Positions 1 to 50,700 of a DNA stretch of 64,000 nt are shown here, one piece after another (the first letter of the stretch is position 1; each line of letters begins with the position of its first letter). Source of the DNA: Euglena gracilis. Lineage: Eukaryota. The position numbers and the translations under genes are program-made. The notes under the pieces are model-generated. The model ran no database searches. It was not told the DNA's origin and saw only the letters and a list, made by a program, of their open reading frames with translations. Location of the stretch: contig CP154954.1 in assembly GCA_039621445.1 (NCBI GenBank), forward strand, positions 32,326,012 to 32,390,011, written 5' to 3'.

Positions 1-3000
1 CACCACCTGTGCAGAGGCTTCCTCTGGGCCTTCCGGGGCCTCGGGCTCCGCCTCCGCCTCGGCCTCCTCCCCCTCTGCGTAGCTGGGGTGCGACGACAGC
101 GGCGACGACCATCCACTGGCCACCTGGCCCTCCTCCTCCTCCTCTTCATCCTCCTCCTCCTCATCCGACGTGAACACCGGTGGGGGCCGCCCCTCCTCCC
201 TGGCGATGTTCCTCCGGATCCGCCGCTCGTAGATCCGGGCCGTGCGCAGCAGGGACTCAGGCACCCCCTGGGAGGTGCTGGGCTTGGGTCAGGCCTTGGG
301 CTTGGCCTTGGCCTTCCCTCATTGTGCGGCCCGCTTGGCCGCCCGCTCCTTCTTCTTTTCCGACCGCTGCTGGACGGCCTCCTTCCGGGCCTGGGCCTCC
401 GTCGCCTTCACCTCCAGCAGCTGCTTCAGCACCTCGGACTCCACCACCGTCCACAGCGGCTCGGACTTCTCCACGGCGTCCTGCAGCTGCTTCCACAGCC
501 CGGTGTTGTCCACCGGGCAGGCCTCCTGCACCGCGTGCCGGATGTGCTCGGTGTACTCCACCGGCTGCACTTTCTCCTTCCCCGTCAGGACCGCTACCAT
601 GTGCGGGGGGTCGGGCGTCCAGTTGAGGAGGTGGCCCACCCGCACCGCCGAGGGGAGCTGGAGGAGGAGGAAGCTGTCCACCTCCACCGGGCGCCGGACA
701 GCGCGGCGCCACAGGTAGTCCACCACGGCCCAGTGCAGCGCGTCGGGGGAGCCGTTGGACTCGCGGTCCCAGAAGATGACGGGAGGGACCTGAGCAGGGG
801 TAGCAAAGGGGGTAGGTATTGTGCAGGTGCGCATTCGAACATCATATGGAATGCCAACAAGGATATGGGATGCAACAATTTTCAAACGCAAATAAGAATG
901 CGCACATGCGCAATCATCCCAATGAAGGGAGGATTGCGCAGGTGCGCATTCACGGCCAGGGATCCATCCGAGCACTCTCCAGGCGGATTATGCATCCCGA
1001 CTCACGGCGTTTATGTAATGGCATTGACTCAGAGGTTCAGGGACAGGGTCGCAGACACATACCTTGAGCCTGTCCAGCTCCGTGTCGTGCAGGAGAATGT
1101 GGAGGGAGAACTTCACCGGCCGGTGGCGCTGCGCCCCGAACTCCACCACCTCGGTCCTCACCCAGCAGTCCACATCCAGCCGGTGCTTGGTGGCCACCCG
1201 CCGGTGGATGTGCTCCACCGTGGCCAGCGCCAGCGCCGGCGGACCGAACACCACCACGGGGACGTCGTCCGCCACGACGTACATTTGCGGCGCGATCGCC
1301 ACCCCCCTCTCCGCCTGCACCACCACCATCCGCACCCTAGCCTGCTCCGCCTGCATCGGCACCCCCGCCTCCGACGCCGCCGAGTAACAAAACACTCTCG
1401 CCAGGGTCTTCTGCTGCCCCTGGACCTCCCGCGCGTAGTCCACGCAGGCCAGGTGCGCCGGGTCCTCCGTCACCACCACCTTCGGTCTCGGGCGCGGGGC
1501 GGCCAGGCTCTCCCGCAGCGCCTCGAACTTCACCGACGTCCAGACCTCGGCGGTGGCCAGCGCCGTGAAGGGCGGGCACGTCGCGTCCTCCCGCCACTCC
1601 CAACGCCCGAGCCGCACGACCAGATGGCGGAGTGCGACGGCCTCCTTGAATCTCCATCTGGCAGCCCTGTCCTCCACTGCGAGGGGCAGGGAACGGGAGT
1701 GGTGGGGAGAATGCGCAGGTGCGCAATCGAACCATAACATGCAGTACACCCCACACAGAGCACTCAATGTCCAGAGCAAGATGCATCCATAACATTAGAT
1801 GGGACAAAATGCAAACGTGGGTGGGTGACAGAAGCACACCAACGTCCGGGTGGATGAAGCGGTTGGCCTCCGTCCAGTGGAAGTTGACCCACATCTCCAG
1901 GCAGGCGTCGCTCACCGCCTTCTCGAAGTCCTGCAGCTTGGGCCTCTCCCCCAGCAGCGCCGGCACCACCGCCGCCCGCGCCTCCGGCGTCATCAGCATC
2001 CGCAGCGACCGCAGCGCCGACACCGTCAGGCCCTTCTTCGTCGCCTCCAGCTTCCGCAGCGCCTCGATGGCCTGCTGCCCCAGCTGCTCCACCCAGCGCT
2101 GGAGGGGGCCGTACGCCTTGGTGGCCATGTCCTGAGTGTGAGAGGCGGGAGGCAGGTTTATGGTCATTCCAAAGAAAGGGCCAAATGCGCACATGCGCAT
2201 TCTTCTCTTATGTGAGAAGAATGCGCATGTGCGCAATCATGTGATGCCACACACAGGCTGTTGCATTCCATCTCCCGTACTCTGACCACCCACATTGCAT
2301 CATCATCCATTACCCCCATAGAGCACAAAGCACACCGTCTTCTGCGTCCGGTCGTACCCCGCCTTCTGCAGCGCCACCGCCAGCCTCACCTTCGGGTTGG
2401 CCTCCGCCCGCACGTCGTCGCCCAGCAGCAGCGCCGCGAAGCTGCTGAGGGGGAGGCCGTGGACCTGCATCTGCTGCGCCTGGTTGTCGCCGCCGGCCAG
2501 CTGCCGCATCGCCACCGGGGTGCCGTGCTTCAGCACCCTCGCCAGCACCCACCGGTACTGCTCCGGCACCTCCCGCCGCTCCTTCAGGAAGTCCTCCGCC
2601 ATCTTCTTCAGTGCCGCCGTCATGTGCTGCCCGCCGACCACCACGTACTCCCGGTCTGTGACGAGACGCACGAGGCAGGCAGGGGGGTGGAAAGAAACTG
2701 CAAGCCAGGTATGGATACCAAAACCAGTGCATGTTTGCGCGGGTGCGCATTCCTCATTTCACTCAATGCATATCCATCCATAAATTTATTATGCAAAGCA
2801 ACTCACAACCAAAACAATGCGCATGTGCGCAAACACACCGATGGTGTCCGCCGCCCACACCACGACTCTCTGCACGGTGGGGGGGGGGGGTTGGTGCGCA
2901 TCGCCTCGTAGACGCGGTCCACGTCCTCCGCCACCAAGGACCGCACCTGCCCCTCTCTGCAGGCCAGGTCGAAGCGCACCTTGGTGAGCTCGATGCGCTG

Positions 3001-3198
3001 CTCTCCCGGCAGCAGCCAGTCTTCCGGCCTCCCGCCCGCCCAACTCGCGATGGCCTCCACCACGCGCTTCTTCTTCTTCCTCCGCCTCTCCTCCTCCGCT
3101 TCCTCCCCCTCCCCCTCTGCCGGGCCTTGGGTGGGGGGTGCCTCGAGGGGCTCCGGCACGTCGGGGGCTGAGGGGGCTGGCGATGGGGGGCGGGACAT
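1..3198 (-). pseudogene. 5-exon gene for a ParB/Srx-like N-terminal-domain protein (~685 aa to the first TGA; frame stays open to the window edge past two TGAs). Exons 3198-2839, 2655-2336, 2131-1840, 1676-1063, 789-319(<1)
   Basis: Four GT-AG introns (2838-2656, 2335-2132, 1839-1677, 1062-790) join the separate ORF-track fragments in phase. The spliced N-terminus GQVRSLVAEDVDRVYEAM..PTVQRVVVWAADTIDREYVVVGGQHMTAALKK resembles the ParB/Srx/DGQHR core. One 1-nt frameshift in the G12 run at 2879-2890, and in-frame TGAs at 319-321 and 289-291. Confidence 0.7.
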
Positions 3199-3750
3199 GG
3201 GGGTGCCGGTGCCCTGCGGTCGAGAAATGGTACATCACTCTCTGTGTACGGGGCGGCAACCCCTATAGCCCTCAGTTCATTTATTTGAATTGATGCATCC
3301 CCCAGCCCTCCCGAGGAAAAAACCATCCAAAATGATTTTTTTTTTAAGCATGCCTCTGAAAGGGCCAGAAAAGGCGATTTCGACAGCGGCGGCGCCTGCT
3401 GCGGTGCCGATTTTCGGAACAGGTCAGGGGAAGTAGAAATATTTCGGATGCACAATTTTGAAAAGTCCTGAGGTTTTGTTTTTGTCGAAAATCACTGAAC
3501 AAAATTACACCCTCTGACGTGTGCAATGCCAGTCGCGCAGAATCGCGTACTGTACGCGGAGTTTTTTTGGCTGAAAAATTTGTGCCCAGCTGCCCGAAAC
3601 GAGGCTCCGCAAGACCCGGGGCTTCCGCCCCGGTGTTCGGCACACTTGGGGGCACCCCCCCAGGCCTCCCAATCGTTCCAGAACGTCGGATGAGTGCAGC
3701 GCCTCCGTGTCCCGGGTGGTGGGGTGCCCCGCTCGGTACGGGGCCCCAGC

Positions 3751-4050
3751 TCAGGCGACGTCCTCGTCGGGGTTGGCTGGGAGGTACACGTCGGGGCCCG
3801 TGGCGGGCGGCACGGGATCGGGGATGCGGCCCGCCAGGTGGGGGGCGCTGAGACCGGCCCGGGCCTCTGGGCCGACGCCACGGAGGTGGGGGACGCCCGG
3901 GACGCACCACCGCGGAGCCGCCGGGACGGGCTGGCCCGCCGCCTGCAGCGCGGGGGGAGCGGGTTGCTCGAACACGGACCGCCGAACAGGGGCTGCGCCG
4001 TGCGGAAGGACGATGGCGGGTGGGTGCTGGCGGGGCATTTGCCAAGTCAA
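3751..4050 (-). CDS. Pro/Ala-rich small ORF, or a terminal exon of the transposase-like gene
   Basis: GC-rich coding-like segment (MPRQHPPAIVLPHG...) with a possible phase-0 acceptor (CAG|CACCCA). No recognisable domain. Confidence 0.3.
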   Translation of the reverse strand: MTWQMPRQHPPAIVLPHGAAPVRRSVFEQPAPPALQAAGQPVPAAPRWCVPGVPHLRGVGPEARAGLSAPHLAGRIPDPVPPATGPDVYLPANPDEDVA

Positions 4051-4467
4051 TTCGCGAAAAAGAAAACGTGGTCACACACCGCACCGGGTCGTTCAGTGGG
4101 TCTGTGTACTCCCAACGATCGAAATCACTTGTAATGCGCATCCGCGCATTACAAGTGATTTCAGATAAGTCTGTCATATATAATTAGTTTGCGCACATGC
4201 GCATTCTGTTGTAATGACCTCTCGGTCAAGGCAAGAAGGCGACTGGTTGGCAGAAGCCGTCATGACACGCTGTATACACCGAGTAGCCAGTGGAATAACC
4301 CATGACACAGCGGCTGCACTGTCCACTTAGTACCACGAGTGAGTCGACAAAACCAACACAATTCAGAACATCTAGTACAATCACTGCTGAATGCGCATGT
4401 GCGCATTCAGCAGTGATTGCGCTCATGCGCATTCAGCACTGATTGCGCACATGCGCATTCACACCGT

Positions 4468-6975
4468 TCATTCACATTCTTTTGGTATTGACTGACAAAC
4501 GATCCTCTTCCATATGCCCCGCCAGTTCGGAACAGCTGGTTGCACCGGGGGGACGGCGACTGGCTGGGGCTTCGCCTTCGGCTTGCCCTTTGGTTGGGCC
4601 TTGGGCTTCGCCTCCGGTCGGACGCGCCCGGCCACGCCGTCCCACGCCCGGAGGTACTGGACGACCTCCTCCTCGCTCCGCCGAGCGCACAGGCCATCTA
4701 GCTCCCGCTGCACGTCCTCGTTGGGCAGGTTGTCCCCGACCAGGGCGAGGAAGGCGTACCGCATCGTGGCCGTCGCGTCCTCCGGGGTGAGGTCCACGGA
4801 CAGCAGGCTGGCGGGGTGGCTCCAGTCCGCGGGCCAGGGCTCGCCCACGGAGTACTCCCGCTCCGTCAGCCGGGCCACATAGCGGACCACGTCGGACACG
4901 GACTCAATCGCCACCCCCGGTCCGGGCACCACGGGCAGCCGCTGCTCCGCACCGCACTGTTCCAGAAGGTCCTCCACGTGTCCGCGCACCGTGTCCACCC
5001 ACCGCTGCCCCACGTTGCCACCCCGCAGCGCCCTGACACCGGGCCGACCGGTCTCCAGCAGCGCGTACAGGTCCCCCACCTGATCCGTGCTCACCGCCAG
5101 GGGGTGCCGCTCGTTCTCCTGCCCGAGCCGGGACAGCGCCGCCTCGCTGAAGCAGGCCGCGGGCAGGGCCGCGTGCCACGGCATCCAGCACAGCATGGCC
5201 ACACCCACAGTCCGGATGTACTCCGTCCGGCGCTCGCCGGGGGCCTCCAGACGCAGCAGCAGGGCGAGGCTGCCGTGCAGCACCTCGAGGGCGTGTCCAC
5301 CGGTGCCAGACTGTCGCAGCTCCCAGTGGCAGGTGCGCACCATCTCCCCCAGGACCAGACACGCCGGAGCCCACTCCCCCAGGAGATCCGCCAGCGCCGC
5401 CAGGATGGTGCTGTCCGCCCGCAGGATCCGCACGACCTGGTTGGCATCCCGCAGTGCAGACTCGGCCCGCTGCAGCGCCGCCTCCCCTTCCTCCGCACCG
5501 GCGATCGCGCGCTCGGCCCGGGACCAGGGGGCCTGCCCGGCGCACACCCGCACCAGCTGCTGCCGGACGTGGGCCTCGGCCGCCTCCAGCTGGGCCCGTC
5601 GCTCCGCCACGGTCGTCGCCCGCTGCGCCGCCTCGCGCTCCACCACGGTCATGCGACGCACCAGACGGTCCCGGAATGCGCAGATGCGCAATCGGGTGTC
5701 CCGTGGCACCAGCAGGAGGGCCCCCAGCCACCGCTCCAGGGTCTGTAGGTTGGGCCGGTGGAAGCTGCCCGTACCGCTTCGGGCCAGGGTGCCGCTCTGC
5801 ACGTAGAGGAAGAGGGGCAGGAACCGCCGGTATATGGTGTGCACCAGCTGTTTGTAGGGGTGCCACACCGCGTACAGCATGGGGAGGGGCGTCAGGGCAG
5901 CCGACACGTCCCACCGCTGCAGCTCCCGGCCGTACAGCAGCTTCGCCACCCGGTACCAGATGTTCTCGTCCACGAGGACCGGCACCGGGGTGGCGAGGTG
6001 GTCGGCGACCGAGCCTTGCAGGTAGCGCAGCACCTCCAGCAGGCCGACCTGGGCCGACACGGCGTGGTCGCCCATGAGGAACGGACGCCACGGCAGGGCC
6101 TCCACCCGGGGCCGGCTCACGTCCAGGGGCACCCGGAAGTCCGTCGCCGGCAGGTCCCAGTCGGCCACCGCCCGGATGCGTTCCCGCAGCCGTCCGCCGC
6201 CGTACTCCGCCAGCTCGGTACCGACCAGCAGGTGCCGCTGCCACAGCTGCTCCAGGGAGTAGTGGCCAGGGAACGGGGGCACGGGGTCCACGAGCGGCAG
6301 CACCGCCACCACCACCACGTTCAGGTGGGCCTCCATCTGGCGCGGGGTGTTGCGGTACCGCCGCTTGTAGTAGTTGTCGAACCACAGCACCGCGGGGTTC
6401 CCGGCCAGGTCGCGCCACAGCTCGGCCTGCCGCGCCAGGGCCAGCCGGGCGCGGTCGGCGGCGGAGTGCAGCAGGGCGGCTGGGTGGACCCCGCTGGGGC
6501 GGAGGAAGCGGCCCAGGGCGCGGGTGGCGGGCAGGGGGACGTCCTCGGCGGCGACGCGGGGCTGCGGGGCACGCGGGCAGGCGTGCTGGCGGTGGGCCCG
6601 GTACGAGGCCCAGGCGTCCCGCAGCAGCATCTCCGTGCGCTGTCGGCGGGGGCGGCGGGTCAGCTCGGCCAGGAGGTGGTCGCTGTCCGGGGAGCGGCGG
6701 AACGGGACCCGGGTGTGGGCCACCAGGACCACCAGCTCGTACAGGGGGTGGGGCGGGTCCACCACGGCCGTGACGAAGTCGGCGTACGTGGCGACGAAGG
6801 TGTCCCGCACCAGCCGGCCAATGATCTTGCGCGGTGGCGCAGGCGCGGGCGGCGGGGGTGTGCGCGTGCCTGGCCCGGTACAGTGTCTGGGGTTGGCGGG
6901 GCATGGGGAGGTTGAGGTGGGTGTAGGGACTGCCGACTGGCGGGAGCCGCCGAGACAGCAGCCAAGGACAAACAA
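4468..6975 (-). CDS. Putative DDE (RNase H-fold) transposase with a large helical/coiled-coil insertion; true start uncertain
   Basis: Ordered motifs: VLWFDNY (D, ~6373-6384), hydrophobic strands, PVLVDEN (D, ~5962-5973), YAVWHPYK (H, ~5860), a long helical insert, then FSEAALSRL (E, ~5140-5148). Strong GC3 codon bias. The likely ATG (MPRQPQ, ~6904) appears frameshifted relative to the main ORF. Confidence 0.55.
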   Translation of the reverse strand: MFVLGCCLGGSRQSAVPTPTSTSPCPANPRHCTGPGTRTPPPPAPAPPRKIIGRLVRDTFVATYADFVTAVVDPPHPLYELVVLVAHTRVPFRRSPDSDHLLAELTRRPRRQRTEMLLRDAWASYRAHRQHACPRAPQPRVAAEDVPLPATRALGRFLRPSGVHPAALLHSAADRARLALARQAELWRDLAGNPAVLWFDNYYKRRYRNTPRQMEAHLNVVVVAVLPLVDPVPPFPGHYSLEQLWQRHLLVGTELAEYGGGRLRERIRAVADWDLPATDFRVPLDVSRPRVEALPWRPFLMGDHAVSAQVGLLEVLRYLQGSVADHLATPVPVLVDENIWYRVAKLLYGRELQRWDVSAALTPLPMLYAVWHPYKQLVHTIYRRFLPLFLYVQSGTLARSGTGSFHRPNLQTLERWLGALLLVPRDTRLRICAFRDRLVRRMTVVEREAAQRATTVAERRAQLEAAEAHVRQQLVRVCAGQAPWSRAERAIAGAEEGEAALQRAESALRDANQVVRILRADSTILAALADLLGEWAPACLVLGEMVRTCHWELRQSGTGGHALEVLHGSLALLLRLEAPGERRTEYIRTVGVAMLCWMPWHAALPAACFSEAALSRLGQENERHPLAVSTDQVGDLYALLETGRPGVRALRGGNVGQRWVDTVRGHVEDLLEQCGAEQRLPVVPGPGVAIESVSDVVRYVARLTEREYSVGEPWPADWSHPASLLSVDLTPEDATATMRYAFLALVGDNLPNEDVQRELDGLCARRSEEEVVQYLRAWDGVAGRVRPEAKPKAQPKGKPKAKPQPVAVPPVQPAVPNWRGIWKRIVCQSIPKECE

Positions 6976-7336
6976 ACATCCGTAAGAAGGGGTACAAACC
7001 GGTCAAAGGACACTACCACGTAACGTCTCAACAATGCGCATGTGCGCATTCATCGTACGATCTGGTGGTAACATACGACTGAGGGAGACGTAATGTACAT
7101 TGTACGACACAATGCGCACATGCGCATTCTGCAGTACAAGGTGTAACGGTCTGACAGCCGGTCTGAGGTCGTCTCGGTTGTGATCGAATGACTGCAGCCT
7201 GTGGGTGTGATGGCCAGCTGCAGAAAACAACGTTCACACTCAGCTACGGCACGCCAAGCCAGGTGTTGGCGTGTGACAACAGTGGATCCAGTGTCGTGCG
7301 TGGCCGCTCCATTCATCAGCTGCGGGGGTGGCTGAC

Positions 7337-7800
7337 TCACAGTTCAAAACCACACTCAACAGGAAAAGACAGTCGGAACACAACCGCCAGGTAAGCATGT
7401 AGCACACCCCGTACCAACACTGGGCCTGCAAACCACGAGCCCGACTGGAAAGCAGTCCTTCGCGCCTCGGGGGGAGGGGGGTGGTAACCACCGCCATCAC
7501 CAACACACCGGCACCCGTGCACCAGCCCTGAAAGGAGGGGGGGGACAAAATTCATCCGGACATCCTCAATGCGCAGGTGCGCATTCTTCACACCATTGGT
7601 CTGAATGCGCGTCTGCGCATTCAGACCACCCGGGTCTGCCACACGGTCAAACACCCACACGTCCACCCAGGTCGCATCCCCTCCTGCTCTCACACGCACC
7701 GGACCAATTAGAACCTTCCAACTGGAAACAGGTGACCCACCGCAGCATGGTGGCCCCGACCCCACACATCACCACCCCTTTCCATCCAGATCACCCCAAT
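7337..7800 (-). CDS. Possible third element gene with a palindrome-containing intron (7629-7528)
   Basis: A GT...CTTTCAG 102-bp segment holds two palindromes and joins ...WVFDRVADP to GLVHGCRC... in frame. No recognisable domain. Confidence 0.25.
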
Positions 7801-8321
7801 TCGGATCTCCAACATCCCGCAATACTGCTGCCTCGGCGGGGTGTGGGGGTGTAGCTGACGTCAGGGGGCAGTCACCTCACAATCTTCTTCGTAGCCAAAT
7901 GCGATACAGAGCACACTGTGAAAAAAAGAAAACAAGCATTCGGCACGCGTCAAAATATTAGAGCGCTCCCGTTACGCGATTTGGATGCTGGTTTCAAAGC
8001 GCACGCGACACGTTCAGAATGCGCACCTGCGCACTCCGCGTCCAAAATGCGCGGATGCGCATTTTCACTAAAACTGCCTAAATTTTGTGACTCAACAAGA
8101 AAAGTGCATTCCCGGCCGTCTAAGAAGAAAGGTACACTCAGGCAGCATAATTCGCATTTAAGTTTTAGAGTTTCTTTGCGCAAGCGAAGGAAAATTGTTT
8201 GCTTCATTTCTCGTCGCAAAAAGTGAGATTCAGCCCGTTTTTTGTGTTTTCGGCTGTCACGGTGCACCAACAGATCGACGGGAATCGCATCAGAGCTCAA
8301 GAGTTTTTCACAATTGTAGTG

Positions 8322-9399
8322 ATGAGTGGCGTGGGGGGGGGTTGTCCCTCTCCTGCCCCCTGCCCCCTGTCCCCGCAGGACCTCGGCAAACTGTTCCCCG
8401 AAGCGTCCCCAGCGACCCCCGGGGCTGACCCGCCCCGGGCGAATGTGTCTGACACCCAGCGATGGTTGACGGCGTCCGCCTTGCGGGTGGGTGAAACCCC
8501 CGTTGTTTTCTTTAGGGTGGATCAGGGGTTGATCTCAGCTGTACGGGGATGTCCTGGACAACAAGGAAATTGGGTGAGCTGATCAGATTTAAAACAGTTT
8601 GGATCCGGAAAAATTCATTGTTAGAAAAATTCGAATTTTCACCAAAAGTGCTGGTTTTTTATCATTTGTGATGAATTTTTTCAGCAAAAGGCAACTCGAG
8701 ATTCCAAAAGAAATGGTCACAATAGTCCTCTGGGTGTCTTGCTTGTAATTTTGCATGCCTAAACAGACTCCAAAATTGAGCATCTGTCACACCCCATCTT
8801 TTTGTGTGTGAAATTTGATTAGTCAGCTCCTCCCAAACAGCGTTGGGAGGGTATGGGAAAAAACGGTGGGAGAAATGGGTGGTTTCGCGTCATTTTTGTT
8901 TCCCGTCATTTTTGTCCGGATTGTGTGACCCAACGGCAAACAAAAGCCACTGTCACAGCAAGAGAACCATCCCTGCCGCGTGGCTTCCCGCCCCACTTCA
9001 TCTTCCCCTCCCCTTCCCGGCCAGGCTTCGTTGGGCCGATGGGTCGGCTTCATATATGCCCGGTTTTTGTGTTGTGCTTCCACCCTCGCGGTCTGCTGTC
9101 CACCGCGGCGGGCTGCAGGGGCATTCCCCCGGCCCCGCGCCGCCTCGGTCCCCAAATTCCAGAGCCTGAGGCCACCCCGGCGCCACGCCCGCCGTGGCCT
9201 TGTCCCCGAGCCCAGCCACTGGCCCATCCCTCCTCAGCCGGATCGCCCCCAGGGACTCCGGAGAGGTCGGGGTGGGCGGTGCGGCGAGGGGGGAGGGTTG
9301 GAGAGGCTGATGGCATTAGAGCCGCCGAAGGAGTGGAGCAGCTGCAACTGGGCTATTTCTATCCACTGCCAGCCGTCAGGATCAGGCCCGGGCATGGGT

Positions 9400-9470
<71 letters not shown>

Positions 9471-12400
9471 CCTGCGTGAGTGGCATTCCGTGCGCCTGCG
9501 GCGTCCCTGTCGGAGACGTGCGAGCCCAAGCCTGGCCCGGGGCCGCCCCCAACCCGGAAGGTCTCCGACTGGGGGCAGGCCCGCCCTTTTTGGAGACAGC
9601 GCTGCTCCTCCCCCTTTACCCTCTACCCCCAGAGGGAAAGGCCCGGCCTGGCGGGGAGCAGGCCATCATCCAGACGGTGAAGGTCCATTTCGAGGACGCG
9701 GCACGGGACGGCGCCACCGCCGTGGGCCGCATCGCGGAGACGGCGCGGCGGCTGCAGTCGGGCCCCGCGGAGCTGACGGCGCCCCGCATCATCTTCCACC
9801 TCGCCCAGCGGTGTGGCGCGCCTCTCTCCCCGAGGGGCACCGTGGCGCAGTCATTTCGGGCCATCACAAACCCCTCCAAAACTCTTTATCAGCCCCCCGT
9901 TTGACGGTGGCCGCATGGCTGGTTCATCTCTGGGCGCTGAATTTGCAGCCGCATGGAGTTCATCATGGGAATCCCAGAATGGTGGCCTGTTAGTCCCCCA
10001 AGCCTCTTGAAATGGCCGCCTGGTTGCCTGCAATATTTCGCCATACTCAATCAAAAGTGGTCGATAATGGCGCGAGGACAAGAGACAAACGGAATAACCC
10101 CCAGAGCATAGGTAGTTCATACAGTACAAAGGGAAAGGGGTTTTATTTGCAGGAGGGCATTGGTCGGTACCAGCACCTGGAACTCAGTAATCATCGAAGC
10201 TTTTTGTTTTTGTGTCGAACACGTTAGATTTCTTTCATACCGCAGGTTTCTGTGCGCCATCCTGTCGTACATCCATACATTCAGAATCCCCTGGCACCTA
10301 AACAAACTTAATTAGGTGCACGCGCGCGCGCACACACACGTCAAGAACAAAAGAAGGAGCCTGAACCCGTTGAACATTTGTTCACATCTCTGGGAGCGAT
10401 TAAACCCCCCCCCCAAATGGTATTGCACCCGCAGCTCTATTGGACGGCCGCCTCCGGCGGGGGGGGGGGGGTGCAGCACTATTTGGACCCGCAGCACTAT
10501 TGGACTGGGTGCCTCTTAGTCCCGGCCTATCACCACAGGCACCCTATTTGTCTGCTCAATGTCCTTCTCTGAGGCTAGTGAGGTCGTGTGGTTCATCTTC
10601 GGACGACTTTTGTGAGTTGCTTGGGTGGGAATTTGCCCCCTTTCCCCTCTCTGCGGATAAAAAAAGGTGCCTGCAGTAGGCTGCACCAGCTTCTACGCAT
10701 TTCACATTGCTGTGATTTGGGGGGGGGTGCAGCACTATTGGACGCTCGCTTCATCCGGCAGGGGGTGCAGCACTATTTGGACCCGCAGCTCTATTGGCCC
10801 CGCAGCACTATTAGGGGGGGTTTACGTGTTTTTTCCTGGCAAACAAATTCGCACCAGCTTTACCAACCCAAAGCCAAGCTCCAGAACATTTTCATTTGGA
10901 GTTGTCTCCCCCTCAAGCATGGAAGGTTGACAGAGGAGTGCTTGAACCGTTGTGTTCTGCAAACATGCCACGGACGGCACCGAACACCCCAACCACACCC
11001 TAGCACACACCACAACCCCATGCACACAGGTGTGGGAGTGCAGGTTTCCCATCCCCTCCTTCCCCTGGGGACGCTGGCGGCAGGGAAGGGCGACCTCCGC
11101 AGCATGCAGGGCTACGCCTCCATCCTGCGGGAGGTCGGGGCGCAGGTGGTGTACGCCGGCGCGGCGGTGGCGATCATCGTGCAGTCCCACGCCCTACCCT
11201 ACCTGGCAGCCAGGGCCCCCGGGGGCATACAGACATTATATGGCGCACTCAGTGTGCAGGAGGGGGTCAGGCTTCTTTTTAATTTGGAAGAACCTCCGCC
11301 GGGGGGGGTCCAGTTACCGCCGGCCATAAACAGACAAGAGGCCTTGTGCAACCGAGGGGGGTCCATGTCCAGAGCATAAATTCATTTAACACCTGTGTGA
11401 CCCCCCCCCCTGGGAGGGTTTTGAGAGTGGGTGGGTGGGTTGGGACCCCAGGACCACCCTGGGGTGGGGTGCGCCATGGGTCAGGTTTTGTATGGCCAAA
11501 TGCCGGGCCAGAAAAATTTTTCCCAGCAATTTCGGCCGATTTTGGCTGGAATTTGGGGGTGTGGGTTTTCGAAAAAGTGCATGGGTGGGTTTGGGCCCGG
11601 GAAAAGGTGCCCCCCCCCCCCCGGTGAAATCTGTGGTCCTGAGGCAGGGGATCTGGGAGGAGTTCAGGGATTGGTGCTCATCCTGAAACAGATAACTGCG
11701 GATAATTACGGATAACTACCGATAAGTCTGAAATCCCCAAATACGGGTAACTCTGGACACCTACGGATAACCACGGATGAACCAGAACTTCAAATACGGA
11801 TAACTGCAGACAATTATAGATAACTGCGGATAAGCCAAACGTTCACCAGTGGAAACAGAAGCCTGGCGGGGGTAAAATTTTCCTCTTCTTTTTTTGTAGT
11901 TTAATTCCTGTGAAATTTGCTTTTCTTTTTGTTTATCGGTCTCTTTCGGGGTCATCTCTGCTGTTAGAAATGAAAACAAAAGTGTCATGTGGTTCAAAGG
12001 CCAAAAATTGCTTTGTTGATTGTTATTCGCGAGGTGCGGAGGGAAAAGTGGTGCAGCCCCCCATTCCTTGGAAGAAAATGGTACACCACAGCATGTTCGT
12101 GGGAGGGGATTGCTTGTGGGGGCACCAATACCTTCCCTGGGCAGGGAACACCCAGCCCCGGAGCCAGGGTTCGACAAAAGGAGGGCGTACGTGGTTCAGG
12201 TGGTGAGCCCTCTTGGACCATAGGGAGGGTCCGGACCATACCATTGCTTAACACCTGTCCCACCCCACTCCCGGGGGGGGGGGGGTAACTGACTGGTTTT
12301 TTCAGAGTGACTGACTGATTTTTTTGGCCAAGAGCCCCCCCCCCCGGGGATGGGGTAGACCCGAAAATGGGAAAGTGGCTGGCCCGGCGCCGAAGGCGCC

Positions 12401-47700: not shown

Positions 47701-50700
47701 AAAGGTCGAAAATGGCAAAAATGTTTTAGAATTTTTTTTTCATCGACCCAGCCCAGCCTGGCCCTCTCCAGCCCCGAACCAGGTTTTGAATAGTGCTGAG
47801 CTCTTAATAAGCGCGCACCCACCCCTTCATTGACCAGGTGTTGAATAGTGCTGAGCTCTTGATAAGCGCACCCCCACCACCGACGGTCCGGCCCGGCCCG
47901 GCCCGGCCGGCGGCCCGGCCCGGCCCGGCCAGCGGCGGGCCGGCGGCCCGGCGGGCCGGCCAGCGGCCCGGCGTCCCAGCGAATCGTTTCGGGCCCCAAA
48001 ATTTTTTTCAATTTTTTTCGACTTTTTTGACCCGGGTTTGACCCAAAGTCAATGGGTTGGCGGCTCAAAACGGGGCTCTGGCGGGTTGGTCAACGACGGC
48101 TTTTAGCCATTTCCAACCATTAGCTACCATGGACCAATTGCCTGAGTGGTCAAAGACTATGCTGTTGAAATCAGATATCACTTCGGCAGAGACGAATATA
48201 AAACATTTTGGTGGAAACATTTCACATTAATTCAGGGTTTTCGTTTTTTTTTAACTTGCCTCCTGAGCCCTAAATGCTCTCTAAGCGAATTGTACAGTCA
48301 GTATACACGTAGCTCAGTGGTAGAGCACTCGGTTCACAAGGTAGCGGTTGTGGGTTCGATCCCCACTGTGTATAATTTTGCTGAATTAAAACATACATAG
48401 AAGCATATGTCATTTCAAACCAAAAATTCATTTTTGAGGGAATCGAACCCACGACCGATAGATTGTAAGTCGAGTGCTCTACCACTGAGCTATGCGCCTC
48501 TCTGACACATGTTGTCTGAAGGGAAAAATACTAATACATACAGGGAGAATCTTTTTGCATTACTAATATGCAATGAAGGAAATCACACCAATGGAAACAA
48601 AAAATTTTCCGGTCGAATATTGCACGAATATTCGACAATATATTTCACAACATTCGAACGTTCGATTATTTTGAAACATTCGAATATTCGTCGAATATTC
48701 GAATGTTCGAAGCAGCCTTAGCAGAAATGCCAAAAATAAAACAATGAAAAGAGAAATGAAAAAAATAAAAAATAAACATAAAAAAATAAAATTAAAAAAA
48801 CGTCACGTGAAATGATATGACATGGGGGGTGTGGGGGTGTGAGGGGGTGTGTGGGGGGTGTGGGGGGGGTGTGGGGGTGTGGGGGGGTGTGGGGGGTGTG
48901 GGGGGTGTGGGGGGGTGTGGGTGTGGGCGGTGTACCTTGTAGAGACCAATCTAACAACGTTGAGCGGGAAATATTCTGCTGTTTGGACAAGAATCGTAAC
49001 CCTGACCCTACTCCTTCAAATAACCTCACAAAATCTTTTTGGCCACAATGAAACACCATCGGGTTCTTTTGCAGAAATCCCAAAAATAAAAGAATGAAAA
49101 GAGAAATGAAAAAAAATAAAAAATAAACATAAAAAGAAAAATAAAATGAAAAGGGTCACGTGAAATGATGTGACATGTGTGGGGGGGGGGGGGGGTGGGG
49201 GGGTGTGGGTGTGTGGGGGGGTGTGGGGGGGGTGTGGGGGGTGTGGGGGGGGGTGTGGGGGGTGGGGGGGGGTGTGTGTGGGGGGGGGGGGGGGGGGGGG
49301 GTGGGGGGGGGGGGTGTGGGGGGTGTACCTTGTAGAGACCAATCTAACAACGTTGAGCGGGAAATATTCTGCTGTTTGGACAAGGATTGTAACCCTAACC
49401 CTACTCCTTCAAATAACCTCACAAAATCTTTTTGGCAACAATGAAACACCATCGGATTCTTTTCCAGACATGTCAAAAATAGTAGAATGAAAAGAGAAAT
49501 GAAAAAAAAATAAAAATAAACATAAAAACAAAATAAAATAAAAAAGGTCACGTGAATGATGTGACGTGGGGGGTGTGTGTGGGGGGGGTGTGGGGGGGTG
49601 TGGGGGTGTGTGTGGGGGGTGTGGTGGGGGGTTGGGGGCTGTGGGGGGTGCGCTGGGGGGGTTGGGGGGGGGGTGTGGGGGGTGTACCTTGTTGAGACCA
49701 ATCTAACACGTTGAGCGGGAAATATTCTGCTGTTTGGACAAGAATCGTACCCTGACCCTACTCCGTCAAATAACCTCACAAAATCTTTTTAGACAAAATG
49801 AAATACCATCGGGTTCTTTTGCAGAAATGACAAAAATAAAAGAATAAAAAGAAAAATGAAAAAAATAAAAAATAAACATAAGAACAAAAATAAAAATAAA
49901 AAAAGGTCACGTGAAATGATGTGACATGTGGGGGGTGTGGGGGGTGTGGGGGGTGTGTGGGGGTGTGGGGGGGGGTGTGGGGGTGTGGGGGGGTGTGGGG
50001 GGGTGTGGGGGGTTTTTTCCGATTTTTTTCCTACTTTTTTGACCCGGTTTTGAACCAAAGTCAATGGGTCGGCGGCGCAAAACGGGGCGCCGGCGGGTCG
50101 AAAAACGCTCGTTTTCGGCTCAATAACAGTTTTTTTGGGTCCGGGAGGCCAAAAAACATCGTTTCGGGCAAAAATTTTTTTCGATTTTTTTCGACTTTTT
50201 GGACCTGGTTTTGACCCAAAGTCAATGGGTCGGCGGCCCAAAGCGGGGCCCCGGCGGGTCGAAAAACGCTCGTTTCCGGCTCAAAAACAGTTTTTCCGGG
50301 GCCGGGAGGCCAAAAAACATCGTTTCGGGCAAAAAAAATTTTTCGATTTTTTTTCGACTTTTTGGACCCGGTTTTGACCCAAAGTCAATGGGTCAGCGGC
50401 CCAAAGCGGGGCCCCGGCGGTTCGAAAAACGCTCGTTTCCGGCTCAAAAACAGTTTTTCCGGGGCCGGGAGGCCAAAAAACATCGTTTCGGGCAAAAAAA
50501 TTTTTTCGATTTTTTTCGACTTTTTTGACCCGGTTTTGACCCATAGTCAATGGGTCGGCGGCCCAGAGCGGGCGCCTGCGGGTCGAAAAACGCTCGTTTC
50601 GGCTCAAAAACAGTTTTTCCAAAAAACATCGTTTCGGGCAAAAAAAAAAAAAAAAATTTTTTCGATTTTTTTAGAACTTTTTGACCCGGTCTTTGACCCA

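What the first reader, a model, noticed from the sequence alone, without database searches (positions are those of the whole stretch)
790..2838. Every intron of the ParB-like gene carries the palindrome and no exon does
Intron 1 (2656-2838) has 2 copies, intron 2 (2132-2335) has 2, intron 3 (1677-1839) has 1 and intron 4 (790-1062) has 3. The rest of the intron sequences look unrelated to each other. This suggests the short introns are kept as carriers for binding sites so that sites continue through coding DNA. The >2.4-kb transposase exon is the largest gap in the array.
Basis: seen in the sequence. Interest (0 to 1): 0.72.

Follow-up and report, generated by a model that had tools for sequence, protein, structure and literature searches.

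The report
Palindromic sites fill a transposon's introns
A multi-copy jumping gene in a eukaryotic genome carries the same 20-letter palindrome in every non-coding stretch, including all four introns of one of its own genes, most likely as landing sites for a protein the element encodes; plant and algal transposons are already known to do something similar.

Summary
Window 1-8124 is the right part of a GC-rich, multi-copy mobile element. Its minus-strand accessory gene has four GT..AG introns at exactly the stated coordinates. They carry 2, 2, 1 and 3 copies of GAATGCGCA-NN-TGCGCATTC (two copies have one mismatch). No exon of that gene has a copy, even allowing two mismatches.

One detail is wrong: the long "transposase" ORF is not an empty gap. 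It holds an exact copy at 5677-5690, near its middle.

The motif is functional, not chance: 14 exact copies against 0.01 expected. ORF fragments of relatives only about 35-40% identical in protein read into their own introns and encode the same motif there. A more distant relative (L001) has a different dispersed palindrome, again with one copy inside its transposase ORF.

Best reading: an array of binding sites for an element-encoded dimeric DNA-binding protein, spread through all non-coding DNA. That introns are kept specifically as carriers is possible but not shown.

"ParB-like" and "transposase" got no profile or fold support here. Splicing was not seen in the RNA data I could lay.

Closest precedents are VANDAL21/VANC21 in Arabidopsis and the ParB-like PAG3 gene with inverted-repeat arrays in red-algal Plavaka elements. 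I call this a new variant of a known kind.

The parts
1..8124 (.). Right-hand part of a GC-rich multi-copy mobile element. It runs off the left end of the window.
   Evidence: GC is 0.64-0.66 here against about 0.44-0.59 beyond. In DNA run X8 the summed contig depth is 12-66 over 1-8016, against 0.5-4 in bins 8351-8684 and 9019-10000. 24 and 12 contigs break into unlike flanks at 8124 and 8125 (tables 2 and 7).
2839..3198 (-). Accessory ('ParB-like') gene, exon 1, with the ATG at 3198-3196. It contains the frameshifting G12 run at about 2877-2890.
   Evidence: Other copies lack 2 letters at 2882 (table 4).
2656..2838 (-). Intron 1 (183 nt, GT..AG, GC 0.49). Motif copies at 2736-2749 (1 mismatch) and 2818-2831.
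2336..2655 (-). Exon 2. It carries the ...YVVVGGQH... stretch that prompted the 'ParB-like' label.
   Evidence: No family hit. Atlas lead of 0.89 to ParB_N/DUF6551 clusters.
2132..2335 (-). Intron 2 (204 nt, GC 0.50). Motif copies at 2186-2199 and 2222-2235 form a 50-nt hairpin-capable inverted repeat.
   Evidence: RNA fold z-score -4.6.
1840..2131 (-). Exon 3.
1677..1839 (-). Intron 3 (163 nt, GC 0.54). One motif copy at 1712-1725, 35 nt from the 3' splice site.
   Evidence: The intron position is kept in relatives: 15 of 19 N-side tails end in [TA]V.
1063..1676 (-). Exon 4, a conserved 204-aa domain. Residues 113-204 have an Alba-like fold.
   Evidence: 49 homologs at E<=1e-3. AF2 pLDDT 89.9. 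Foldseek Rpp25 6.7e-4 plus many Alba rows. VIA Z 7.7 and 7.3.
790..1062 (-). Intron 4 (273 nt, GC 0.52). Motif copies at 820-833 (1 mismatch), 899-912 and 935-948.
   Evidence: RNA fold z-score -4.1. The 5' splice site is kept in relatives: 24 of 27 C-side tails start with V, 12 of them with VC.
319..789 (-). Exon 5, with the stop codon at 319-321.
4135..4457 (.). Intergenic cluster of five motif copies: 4135 (1 mismatch, centre of a 42-nt palindrome at 4121-4162), 4190, and 4392/4418 (1 mismatch)/4444 at 26-bp steps.
4471..7002 (-). 844-codon open frame of the putative DDE-type transposase. Homology to relatives starts at 6828. No start codon was identified.
5677..5690 (.). Exact motif copy inside the long ORF (it encodes ..LRICAF..), 1233 bp and 1358 bp from its neighbours.
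7035..7619 (.). Four motif copies upstream of the long ORF: 7035, 7113, 7570 and 7606 (1 mismatch).
8018..8124 (.). Terminal segment with two motif copies (8020, and 8048 with 1 mismatch). It is shared with a far more abundant short repeat family.
   Evidence: Depth 2048.8 in bin 8017-8350 of X8. Loose ends before 8015/8018 and behind 8124/8125. Joints place a motif copy 15-25 nt before 8099 in other copies (tables 2, 5, 5c and 7).

Best explanation
The 20-bp inverted repeat GAATGCGCA-NN-TGCGCATTC is the recognition site of a dimeric, sequence-specific DNA-binding protein encoded by the element.

The first candidate binder is the product of the five-exon accessory gene. It has an Alba-like nucleic-acid-binding fold and possibly a ParB/Srx-like N-terminus. 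The second candidate is the N-terminal part of the putative transposase.

Sites occur in the terminal segment that non-autonomous derivatives share, so they probably act in cis in transposition. They also occur at intervals of at most about 1.4 kb through all non-coding DNA of the element, so the protein can occupy the whole element. This would mark it as 'self', for example for anti-silencing or DNA/chromatin modification as in VANDAL/VANC and as proposed for PAG3.

Introns carry sites because they are the only non-coding DNA inside the gene. Where a long ORF has no intron, one site is written into the coding sequence instead.

Shown here: the anatomy, the enrichment, the avoidance of coding DNA, the conservation in orthologous introns, and the lineage-specific palindrome in a relative. 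Inferred: that a protein binds, which protein it is, and what binding achieves.
For: - Enrichment and confinement: 14 exact copies against 0.01 expected, and 20 of 21 copies with up to 1 mismatch lie within 820-8061.
- Extended palindrome: the flanks are AA/TT in 14 of 20 copies on each side, and C follows in 18 of 20. This is the form expected for a dimer.
- Coding avoidance: 1 of 20 copies in 4517 coding bp, P = 9e-7.
- The terminal 107 bp, shared with a repeat family about 30-170 times deeper, holds two copies. Other copies join a motif to the last 26 nt of the element.
- Conservation: ORF fragments of exon-4 relatives (33-40% identity for the top hits) read into flanking introns and encode the motif in 6 of 49 proteins (P0009, P0010, P0013, P0016, P0053, P0056). 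That is 7 hits in 1632 tail residues against 0.22 expected. The positions are similar: 90-112 nt after the 5' splice site against 114 nt here, and 22-75 nt before the 3' site against 35 nt here.
- Intron positions 3 and 4 are themselves conserved.
- L001, 34% identical in the long ORF, has a different palindrome, AGTCCGCG-N6/7-CGCGGACT. It has 4 copies: one inside its ORF and three just after the stop. This fits co-evolution of site and binder.
- The exon-4 domain folds with pLDDT 89.9, and residues 113-204 match Alba/Rpp25/Pop7 nucleic-acid binders.
- Precedent: the VANC21 motif lies in introns, intergenic and terminal non-coding DNA of VANDAL21 (PMC5735166, passages read). ParB-like PAG3 has adjacent inverted-repeat arrays (bioRxiv 10.1101/2025.02.11.637652, section 8 read).
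Against: - No binding was measured, and no tool here can test protein-DNA recognition.
- Neither protein has a recognised DNA-binding family hit.
- The ParB-like call is unsupported by profiles, BLAST and PDB sequence search. Exon 2 has no detectable homolog by word search.
- The Alba match has Z below 8, which the tool warns may be only a common arrangement.
- Only the closest 6 of 49 relatives show the motif in their tails. Many tails are short, and DNA of those contigs could not be fetched.
- Differences among this genome's own copies were listed only in part (40 of 466). None of the 11 listed intronic differences falls in a motif, but the chance of that by luck is about 0.2, so it is uninformative.
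- No transcript evidence shows that the gene is expressed or spliced.
Confidence: 0.55

Rival explanations
1. The strong form of the first reader's idea. The introns are maintained by selection specifically as carriers, because the binder needs a site at least every 1-1.4 kb. An example would be a ParB-like clamp that loads at sites and spreads only a short way in chromatin. On this view intron loss is selected against.
For: - Intron positions 3 and 4 are conserved in relatives down to about 25-30% identity.
- The motif sits at similar distances from the splice sites in the closest relatives.
- Intron motif density is 2.2 times that of other non-coding DNA.
- The only long intronless ORF has a site written into its coding sequence 1233 and 1358 bp from its neighbours. 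L001 also has one in its ORF.
Against: - All four introns being hit is expected 21% of the time under uniform spread over non-coding DNA. The density excess has p = 0.052.
- Conserved intron positions are common without any such role.
- L001 has at least 1598 bp with no copy of its palindrome.
- P0025 may keep the intron-3 position without an obvious motif.
- The ParB identity is unproven.
Confidence: 0.2
2. The motif is only the transposase's subterminal or cis recognition repeat, in the manner of En/Spm TnpA sites or Ac subterminal hexamers (recalled from memory). The internal copies are neutral by-products, for example of abortive gap repair or internal duplication, that survive wherever they do not break a codon.
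For: - Two copies lie in the terminal 107 bp shared with abundant short derivatives. Other copies join a motif to the terminus.
- Coding avoidance alone is explained by purifying selection on the proteins.
Against: - Internal copies extend at least 7.3 kb from the end. They are kept in orthologous introns of proteins only about 35-40% identical, where neutral sequence would be unrecognisable.
- A copy is tolerated inside the ORF.
- Internal transposase sites would risk aberrant cleavage (general knowledge).
Confidence: 0.15
3. The palindromes act at the RNA level. They would form intronic hairpins that help or regulate splicing of GC-rich pre-mRNA, or feed small-RNA pathways.
For: Introns 2 and 4 fold far better than shuffles because of paired motif copies: z = -4.6 and -4.1, and 0 of 200 shuffles fold as well.
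Against: - Intron 3 has a single copy.
- 11 of 20 copies lie outside the gene, in intergenic and terminal DNA, and one lies in an exon of the other gene.
- A 9-bp arm with a 2-nt spacer is a poor RNA hairpin but a typical dimer site.
Confidence: 0.07
4. The sites are bound by a host transcription factor (promoter or enhancer elements captured by the element). Alternatively, they are tiny mobile palindromes or introner-like insertions that created the introns.
For: - CpG-rich palindromes resemble many host factor sites.
- Palindromic repeats with the same core exist as REP-like repeats in bacteria, so the core is not unique.
Against: - There are no exact copies in the 56 kb of host DNA in this window.
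- A relative carries a different palindrome.
- The introns share nothing but the motif, and no terminal repeats were seen at the intron ends by eye.
- Intron positions are old, so they are not recent insertions.
- The bacterial loci encode no relative of the element's proteins.
Confidence: 0.08

Closest known systems
VANDAL21 (Mutator-like) transposons of Arabidopsis and their anti-silencing protein VANC21 (PMC5735166; passages read with 'find')
   Same: [quoted passage not shown] This includes introns of the element's own genes.
- The motif is rare elsewhere in the genome.
- Related elements have different motifs.
   Different: - The VANC motif (YAGTATTAY) is a 9-bp non-palindromic site arrayed as same-orientation tandem repeats. 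Here the site is a 20-bp inverted repeat, single or in pairs 26-36 bp apart, with one copy inside coding DNA.
- No homology to VANC was tested or seen.
- No methylation data are available.
- The transposase here matches no Pfam family.
[quoted passage not shown] Also the ParB-like plus DNA methyltransferase gene of Ectocarpus Sola1 (PMC12477816, one passage read).
   Same: - A eukaryotic DNA transposon with a second gene said to be ParB-like.
- Inverted repeats in the same element, proposed to be bound by that gene's product.
   Different: - The ParB-like domain is not confirmed here.
- No 2OG-oxygenase or methyltransferase family hit was found.
- The exon-4 domain is Alba-like.
- The repeats are dispersed through at least 7.3 kb, including every intron, rather than forming an adjacent tandem array.
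- The long ORF has no Plavaka or EnSpm Pfam hit.
- Figures and supplements of these papers were not seen, so intron placement of their repeats is unknown to me.
Bacterial ParB-parS partition systems (recalled general knowledge; also summarised in the Bostrychia preprint, section 8)
   Same: Palindromic sites for a dimeric binder, several copies near its own gene.
   Different: - This is a nuclear eukaryotic transposon with spliceosomal-type introns.
- No ParB_N, HTH or CTP-motif support was obtained.
- No ParA partner was seen in the part of the element that lies in the window.
En/Spm (CACTA) TnpA and its 12-bp subterminal motifs (recalled, no call)
   Same: A two-gene DNA transposon in which an accessory DNA-binding protein recognises repeated short motifs near the ends.
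   Different: TnpA sites are confined to a few hundred bp at each end. Here the sites run through the whole visible part of the element, and the terminus is not CACTA-like (...CTAAG at 8124).

Membership tests
ParB/Srx-type DNA-binding proteins | N-terminal ParB/Srx domain detectable by profile or fold | tested here: inconclusive
   - The exon pieces gave no hit in Pfam, PHROGs or NCBIfam, in the PDB sequence search or in tblastn against phages.
- The Atlas feature search gave ParB_N/DUF6551 clusters only at 0.88-0.89, below its 0.9 line.
- In this copy the domain is split by a frameshift and by intron 1, so the whole domain could not be handed to any tool.
ParB/Srx-type DNA-binding proteins | Helix-turn-helix DNA-binding domain after the N-terminal domain | tested here: inconclusive
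   Exon 3 (97 aa) gave no PDB sequence hit, no usable Atlas hit and no family hit. It was not folded.
ParB/Srx-type DNA-binding proteins | Cognate palindromic sites near or within its own locus | tested here: met
   20 copies of a 20-bp inverted repeat within 820-8061, 8 of them inside the gene.
PAG3-type transposon accessory genes (ParB-like + 2OG oxygenase) | 2OG-dependent oxygenase domain | tested here: inconclusive
   No Pfam or NCBIfam hit in exons 3-5. The confident exon-4 model is an alpha/beta domain with an Alba-like C-terminal half. Exon 5 (156 aa) was not folded.
PAG3-type transposon accessory genes (ParB-like + 2OG oxygenase) | Inverted-repeat arrays beside the gene inside a DNA transposon | tested here: met
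   The copies are dispersed rather than in tandem.
DDE (RNase H-like) cut-and-paste transposases | Membership of a described transposase family by profile | tested here: not met
   No transposase family appeared at E<=5 for any of the 9 members of A1 in Pfam, nor in PHROGs or NCBIfam for the window's protein.
DDE (RNase H-like) cut-and-paste transposases | RNase H-like core with an acidic triad | tested here: inconclusive
   - Conserved WFDN (6 of 6 sequences that cover it), and invariant D345 (LVDxN) and E594 (EYxRT).
- The model has strands at 204-209, 231-236, 342-345 and 376-380, and a long helical insert at 434-561.
- Foldseek found no match at E<=0.001, and the VIA rows are all coiled-coil matches to 434-541.
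- The core alone was not folded.
DDE (RNase H-like) cut-and-paste transposases | Terminal inverted repeats and target-site duplication | not testable with these tools
   The left end lies outside the window and no genome is held. Only the right end, at 8124/8125, is defined.
DDE (RNase H-like) cut-and-paste transposases | Many copies with different flanks | tested here: met
   Depth 12-66 against 0.5-4 in the flanks, and 36 contigs diverging at 8124/8125 with agreement of 0.37-0.43.
VANDAL/VANC-type self-recognition (anti-silencing) | Element-specific motif concentrated in non-coding DNA of the element, including introns of its own genes | tested here: met
VANDAL/VANC-type self-recognition (anti-silencing) | Homology to VANC, and loss of DNA methylation on binding | not tested
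   No VANC sequence and no methylation data were at hand.
Alba superfamily (Alba/Rpp20/Rpp25/Pop6/Pop7) | Alba fold (beta-alpha-beta-alpha-beta-beta with a long hairpin) | tested here: inconclusive
   - Model residues 113-204.
- Foldseek: 6cwx_B at E 6.7e-4, and many Alba rows with probability 0.98-1.00.
- VIA: 6ahr_F Z 7.7 (rmsd 3.3, 91 aligned) and 1nh9_A Z 7.3 (rmsd 2.5, 72 aligned).
- Z is below 8, and N6-methyltransferase rows at Z 4-5.6 cover 61-204.
Introner / MITE-derived introns | Introns related to each other or to a repeat family, with terminal repeats or duplications at their ends | tested here: not met
   Only the motif pair is shared between introns. The positions of introns 3 and 4 are conserved in distant relatives.

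The most novel reading that the evidence does not exclude
This is an undescribed family of eukaryotic DNA transposons. Neither protein matches any Pfam family, and there are only 8 and 49 relatives among billions of proteins. The family uses a spacing-limited 'coat'. An element-encoded dimeric binder (a ParB/Alba-like accessory protein) must load at a palindrome at least every ~1.4 kb to occupy the whole element.

On this reading, selection keeps old introns in the element's own genes as site carriers. Where no intron exists, it writes a site into the coding sequence. Introns would then be maintained for a DNA-level function of the mobile element itself.
Probability: 0.2. Interest if true: 0.75.

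Novelty: new variant of a known kind. Interest (0 to 1): 0.5.

Why it matters
If the sites are bound by the element's own protein, this adds a third, independent lineage to a short list of transposons that recognise and probably modify themselves. The two known cases are VANDAL/VANC in plants and the ParB-like accessory genes of algal giant transposons.

This lineage has some unusually clean features:
- a long palindromic site that is easy to test by EMSA or DAP-seq;
- conservation of the site in orthologous introns across deep protein divergence;
- a site embedded in coding DNA.

It gives a concrete way to ask whether introns of mobile-element genes can be retained for what their DNA carries rather than for splicing. 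Both proteins are unannotated families, so even their basic classification would be new information.

Tried and rejected
- RNA evidence for the four junctions. I laid one raw RNA run (X21, about 5% of it read), a metatranscriptome (X19), a run guessed to be RNA (X15) and a DNA run (X8).
  - None of the 15 listed joints is an intron of this gene; 18 further joints were not shown.
  - X21 gave 78 reads, 72 of them only partly matching. Most belong to another locus that shares a low-complexity stretch at 3073-3105.
  - X19 record 11 (1775-2109) and X15 record 3 (1732-1977) cross the intron 3/exon 3 border unspliced.
  - Coverage is too thin to say anything about splicing or expression.
- No whole genome is held, so the genome-wide motif scan and the alignment of copies could not be done.
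- Earlier notes of this scan: nothing relevant.
- Related DNA.
  - The JGI metagenome scan gave one locus, L001.
  - Viral contigs gave none for the protein or the single motif, and 3 unrelated loci for the double motif.
  - The genome contigs double-motif scan returned at least 120 bacterial stretches (Bradyrhizobium and others). These look like REP-type repeats, and none encodes a relative of the element's proteins. This was a dead end.
- Exon 2 word-based homolog searches, both 'longer' and 'near', found none. The Atlas found nothing for exon 3. tblastn of exon 2 against phages gave only chance-level tail-protein rows.
- Fold search of the whole 844-aa model gave only coiled-coil matches.
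- Homodimer prediction of the exon-4 domain returned no verdict: score 0.00, the alignment was not used, and its own fold was uncertain. This is not evidence either way.
- The ten longest ORFs of the host flank had no Pfam hit, so the host taxon was not determined.
- No upstream exon or start codon for the long ORF was found by tblastn with relatives' N-termini.
Full report
WHAT IS THERE

The first 8.1 kb of the window is GC-rich (0.64-0.66) and differs from the ~0.44-0.59 GC DNA beyond it. Laying contigs of a DNA run on 1-10000 shows that this is a repeated element with a sharp right end.
- In X8 the summed contig depth is 12-66 in every bin of 1-8016, and 0.5-4 in bins 8351-8684 and 9019-10000.
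- 24 and 12 contigs run into unlike sequence at 8124 and 8125, with agreement of 0.37-0.43 (tables 2 and 7).
- The last 107 bp (8018-8124) has depth 2048.8, so this terminus is shared with a much more abundant short repeat family.
- The element runs off the left end of the window, and no genome is held. Its left end, terminal repeats and target duplication are therefore unknown.

THE GENE AND ITS INTRONS

On the minus strand the four stated intervals (2656-2838, 2132-2335, 1677-1839, 790-1062) start GTGTG or GTATG and end CAG. Their GC is 0.49-0.54, against 0.69-0.72 for the five exons, and joining the exons keeps one frame open across all four joins.

The only break is a run of twelve G at about 2877-2890. 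Contigs of other copies in two runs lack two letters there (table 4). With those two letters omitted, the spliced CDS is 2055 nt and is open from the ATG at 3198 to the stop at 319-321, giving 684 codons. The window's copy is therefore either a frameshifted copy or a homopolymer assembly error.

Independent support for introns 3 and 4 comes from relatives. A phmmer search with exon 4 found 49 proteins at E<=1e-3 (12 at <=1e-10, none <=1e-30). All are unnamed ORF fragments called on metagenome or run contigs (looked up 10 proteins, 7 of them from this set and 3 relatives of the long ORF).
- Of the 19 that extend at least 6 residues upstream of the exon-4 start, 15 end in [T/A]-V. This is what reading through ...(A/G)CAG|TG gives. 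The residues before that are rich in Pro, Leu, Ser and Cys, as a pyrimidine tract would be.
- Of the 27 that reach the exon-4 end, 24 continue with V and 12 with V-C. This is what reading through |GTnTGy gives.

The splice sites of introns 3 and 4 therefore sit at the same codon positions across this family.

RNA evidence was sought but is uninformative.
- None of the 15 listed joints is one of these introns; 18 more joints were not shown.
- The one raw RNA run gave 78 mostly spurious reads from about 5% of the run.
- Two contigs (X19, and X15, whose RNA status is a guess) cross the intron 3/exon 3 border unspliced.

THE MOTIF

The core TGCGCANNTGCGCA occurs 14 times exactly, against 0.01 expected; 0 of 100 shuffles reach 14. 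All copies lie between 899 and 8033.
- With up to 1 mismatch there are 21 copies (0.18 expected), 20 of them at 820-8061.
- With up to 2 mismatches there are 27 (2.35 expected). The only addition inside the element is 6828-6841.
- The flanks extend the symmetry: AA precedes in 14 of 20 copies, TT follows in 14 of 20, and C follows that in 18 of 20. The full site is GAATGCGCA-NN-TGCGCATTC, two 9-bp arms around a 2-bp spacer, which is most often CA/TG.
- Copies stand alone or in pairs 26, 28 or 36 bp apart. The pair in intron 2 forms a 50-nt inverted repeat.

DISTRIBUTION

| Region | Copies | Length (bp) |
|---|---|---|
| Introns | 8 | 823 |
| Exons of this gene | 0 | 2054 |
| Long ORF | 1 | 2463 |
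| Remaining non-coding DNA | 11 | 2463 |

Two of these copies (820 and 2736) have one mismatch. All 8 copies in the gene lying in introns has P = 4.5e-5 under uniform placement. At most 1 of 20 copies in coding DNA has P = 9e-7.

The long ORF is not an empty gap. It holds an exact copy at 5677-5690 (reading ..LRICAF..), 1233 bp and 1358 bp from its neighbours. The largest gaps in the array are 1358, 1317 and 1233 bp.

IS THE MOTIF CONSERVED IN ORTHOLOGOUS INTRONS?

DNA of diverged copies could not be fetched. However, the relatives' ORF fragments read into their flanking introns, and the motif leaves a recognisable peptide in each frame: C-A-x-A-[HQ], [LMV]-R-x-C-A, or A-[HQ]-[LMV]-R.
- In 44 such tails (1632 residues) there are 7 of these peptides, against 0.22 expected from shuffled tails; the maximum was 3 and 0 of 2000 shuffles reach 7. 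In 8880 residues of the homologous cores there are 3.
- The carriers are P0009, P0010, P0013, P0016 (both sides), P0053 and P0056, that is 6 of 49 proteins. Four of them are among the best hits at 33-36% identity.
- The distances are similar to the window's. After the 5' splice site of intron 4 they are about 90-112 nt, against 114 nt here. Before the 3' splice site of intron 3 they are about 22-75 nt, against 35 nt here.

At this protein divergence unconstrained intron sequence would be unrecognisable, so the motif is under selection in these introns. More distant relatives show no such peptide. That is expected if they use other sites.

The one related locus found in JGI metagenomes, L001 (34% identity to the long ORF), has no copy of this motif. 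It has four copies of its own palindrome, AGTCCGCG-N6/7-CGCGGACT. One lies inside its intronless ORF (1599-1621) and three lie just after its stop codon (2250, 2344, 2465). A dispersed, lineage-specific palindrome with one copy written into the long ORF is therefore a trait of the family.

THE TWO PROTEINS

The 844-codon frame (4471-7002) has only 8 relatives at E<=0.001 (36-48% identity, unnamed).
- No Pfam hit appears for any of the 9 aligned members, and nothing in PHROGs, NCBIfam or the PDB sequence search.
- The alignment has a conserved WFDN and invariant LVDxN, VWHPYKQ and EYxRT.
- The AF2 model (pLDDT 66.5) places the first two on or after strands 204-209 and 342-345 and has a long helical hairpin at 434-561. 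This is compatible with a DDE transposase carrying an insertion domain.
- Fold searches returned only coiled-coil matches.
- 'Transposase' is therefore an inference, which I rate at about 0.6.

For the five-exon gene, no exon piece hits any family.
- The ParB-like call rests on the pattern ...V..V.........Y.VV.G.H...A.. around the frameshift and intron 1, and on an Atlas similarity of 0.88-0.89 to ParB_N/DUF6551 clusters, below that tool's 0.9 line.
- Exon 4 folds confidently (pLDDT 89.9 with 50 sequences).
- Its residues 113-204 match Alba-superfamily nucleic-acid binders: Foldseek 6cwx_B at 6.7e-4 and many Alba rows, and VIA 6ahr_F Z 7.7 and 1nh9_A Z 7.3.
- Weaker N6-adenine methyltransferase rows (Z 4-5.6) cover residues 61-204.
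- The Z values are below the level at which the tool trusts a match, so this is a lead that the protein binds nucleic acid, not a classification.

HOW IT MOST LIKELY WORKS

A 20-bp inverted repeat is the form expected of a site for a dimeric DNA-binding protein. The following all point to a binder encoded by the element, which recognises the ends and also occupies the whole element through sites at most ~1.4 kb apart:
- the motif is confined to the element;
- it is present in the terminus shared with abundant short derivatives;
- it is conserved in diverged relatives;
- a more distant relative has replaced it with another palindrome.

Introns carry sites because they are the only non-coding DNA within the gene.

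Whether introns are retained for that purpose is open. Uniform scatter over non-coding DNA would hit all four introns 21% of the time, and the 2.2-fold density excess in introns has p = 0.052. On the other side, the conserved intron positions, the conserved motif placement and the in-ORF copies are what the carrier idea predicts.

The RNA-hairpin, host-factor and introner alternatives are weaker, for the reasons given under the rival explanations.

COMPARISON WITH WHAT IS KNOWN

The closest working analogue is VANDAL21/VANC21. [quoted passage not shown]

The closest proposed relative by gene content is PAG3 of red-algal Plavaka and other giant transposons. [quoted passage not shown] A ParB-like plus methyltransferase gene is also reported in an Ectocarpus Sola1 element (PMC12477816, one passage read).

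Membership in either family is not established here. I found no ParB_N, oxygenase, methyltransferase or known transposase family hit.

Searches for ParB with transposon, alga or accessory-gene terms and for the motif core with transposon turned up no description of this element family or of this motif in introns. This covers only the open-access library that was searched.

VERDICT

This is a new variant of a known kind. Interest 0.5.

Noticed in passing
window 8018-8124: The last 107 bp of the element has summed contig depth of about 2049 in X8, against 12-66 for the rest of the element. Contigs differ from the window before 8015/8018. An abundant form joins 8037 back to 7568 through 9 other letters (depth 306). 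This is probably a high-copy miniature derivative family that shares only the terminus and its two motif copies.
   Followed up: partly
window 8685-9018: A second, unrelated repeat lies just outside the element. Depth is about 250 in X8 and 125 in X15. There are many length-variant joints at 8713-8895, and 30 contigs diverge after 8924.
   Followed up: no
window 1-288 (minus strand): An open frame continues beyond the accessory gene's stop codon and off the window. It is rich in acidic residues, has no start codon and is preceded by a short K/P/A-rich stretch. It could be a further exon or the next gene of the element.
   Followed up: no
window 4121-4162: A 42-nt near-perfect palindrome (90% over 42 nt) is centred on a one-mismatch motif copy, so here the symmetry extends about 14 nt beyond the usual 20-bp site.
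   Followed up: no
L001 1599-1621, 2250-2272, 2344-2366, 2465-2487: A distant relative of the long ORF on a metagenome contig has its own dispersed palindrome, AGTCCGCG-N6/7-CGCGGACT. One copy lies inside the ORF, in a loop that varies in length among relatives.
   Followed up: yes
L002-L121 (bacterial genome contigs): Pairs of TGCGCANNTGCGCA 8-38 nt apart are common in Bradyrhizobium and some other bacterial genomes and MAGs. Up to 9 core copies occur per 8 kb (L010, L117). They are presumably REP-like repeats unrelated to this element.
   Followed up: partly
window 48303-48374 (+) and 48436-48492 (-): Two tRNA matches lie 61 nt apart on opposite strands (48.3 and 39.7 bits; the second covers model positions 8-63 only). 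They sit in a 2-kb stretch with strong GC skew of 0.376.
   Followed up: no
window 9400-9470 and 10430-10810: There is a (GT)n microsatellite of about 70 nt. There is also a cluster of short repeats of the form ...GCAGCACTATTGGAC... in host DNA next to the element.
   Followed up: no
window 3073-3105: 21 and 20 raw RNA reads of X21 match only this 32-nt purine/pyrimidine-rich stretch of exon 1 and then run on into other sequence. An expressed gene elsewhere therefore shares this low-complexity stretch, and these reads are not evidence that the element is expressed (table 7).
   Followed up: partly
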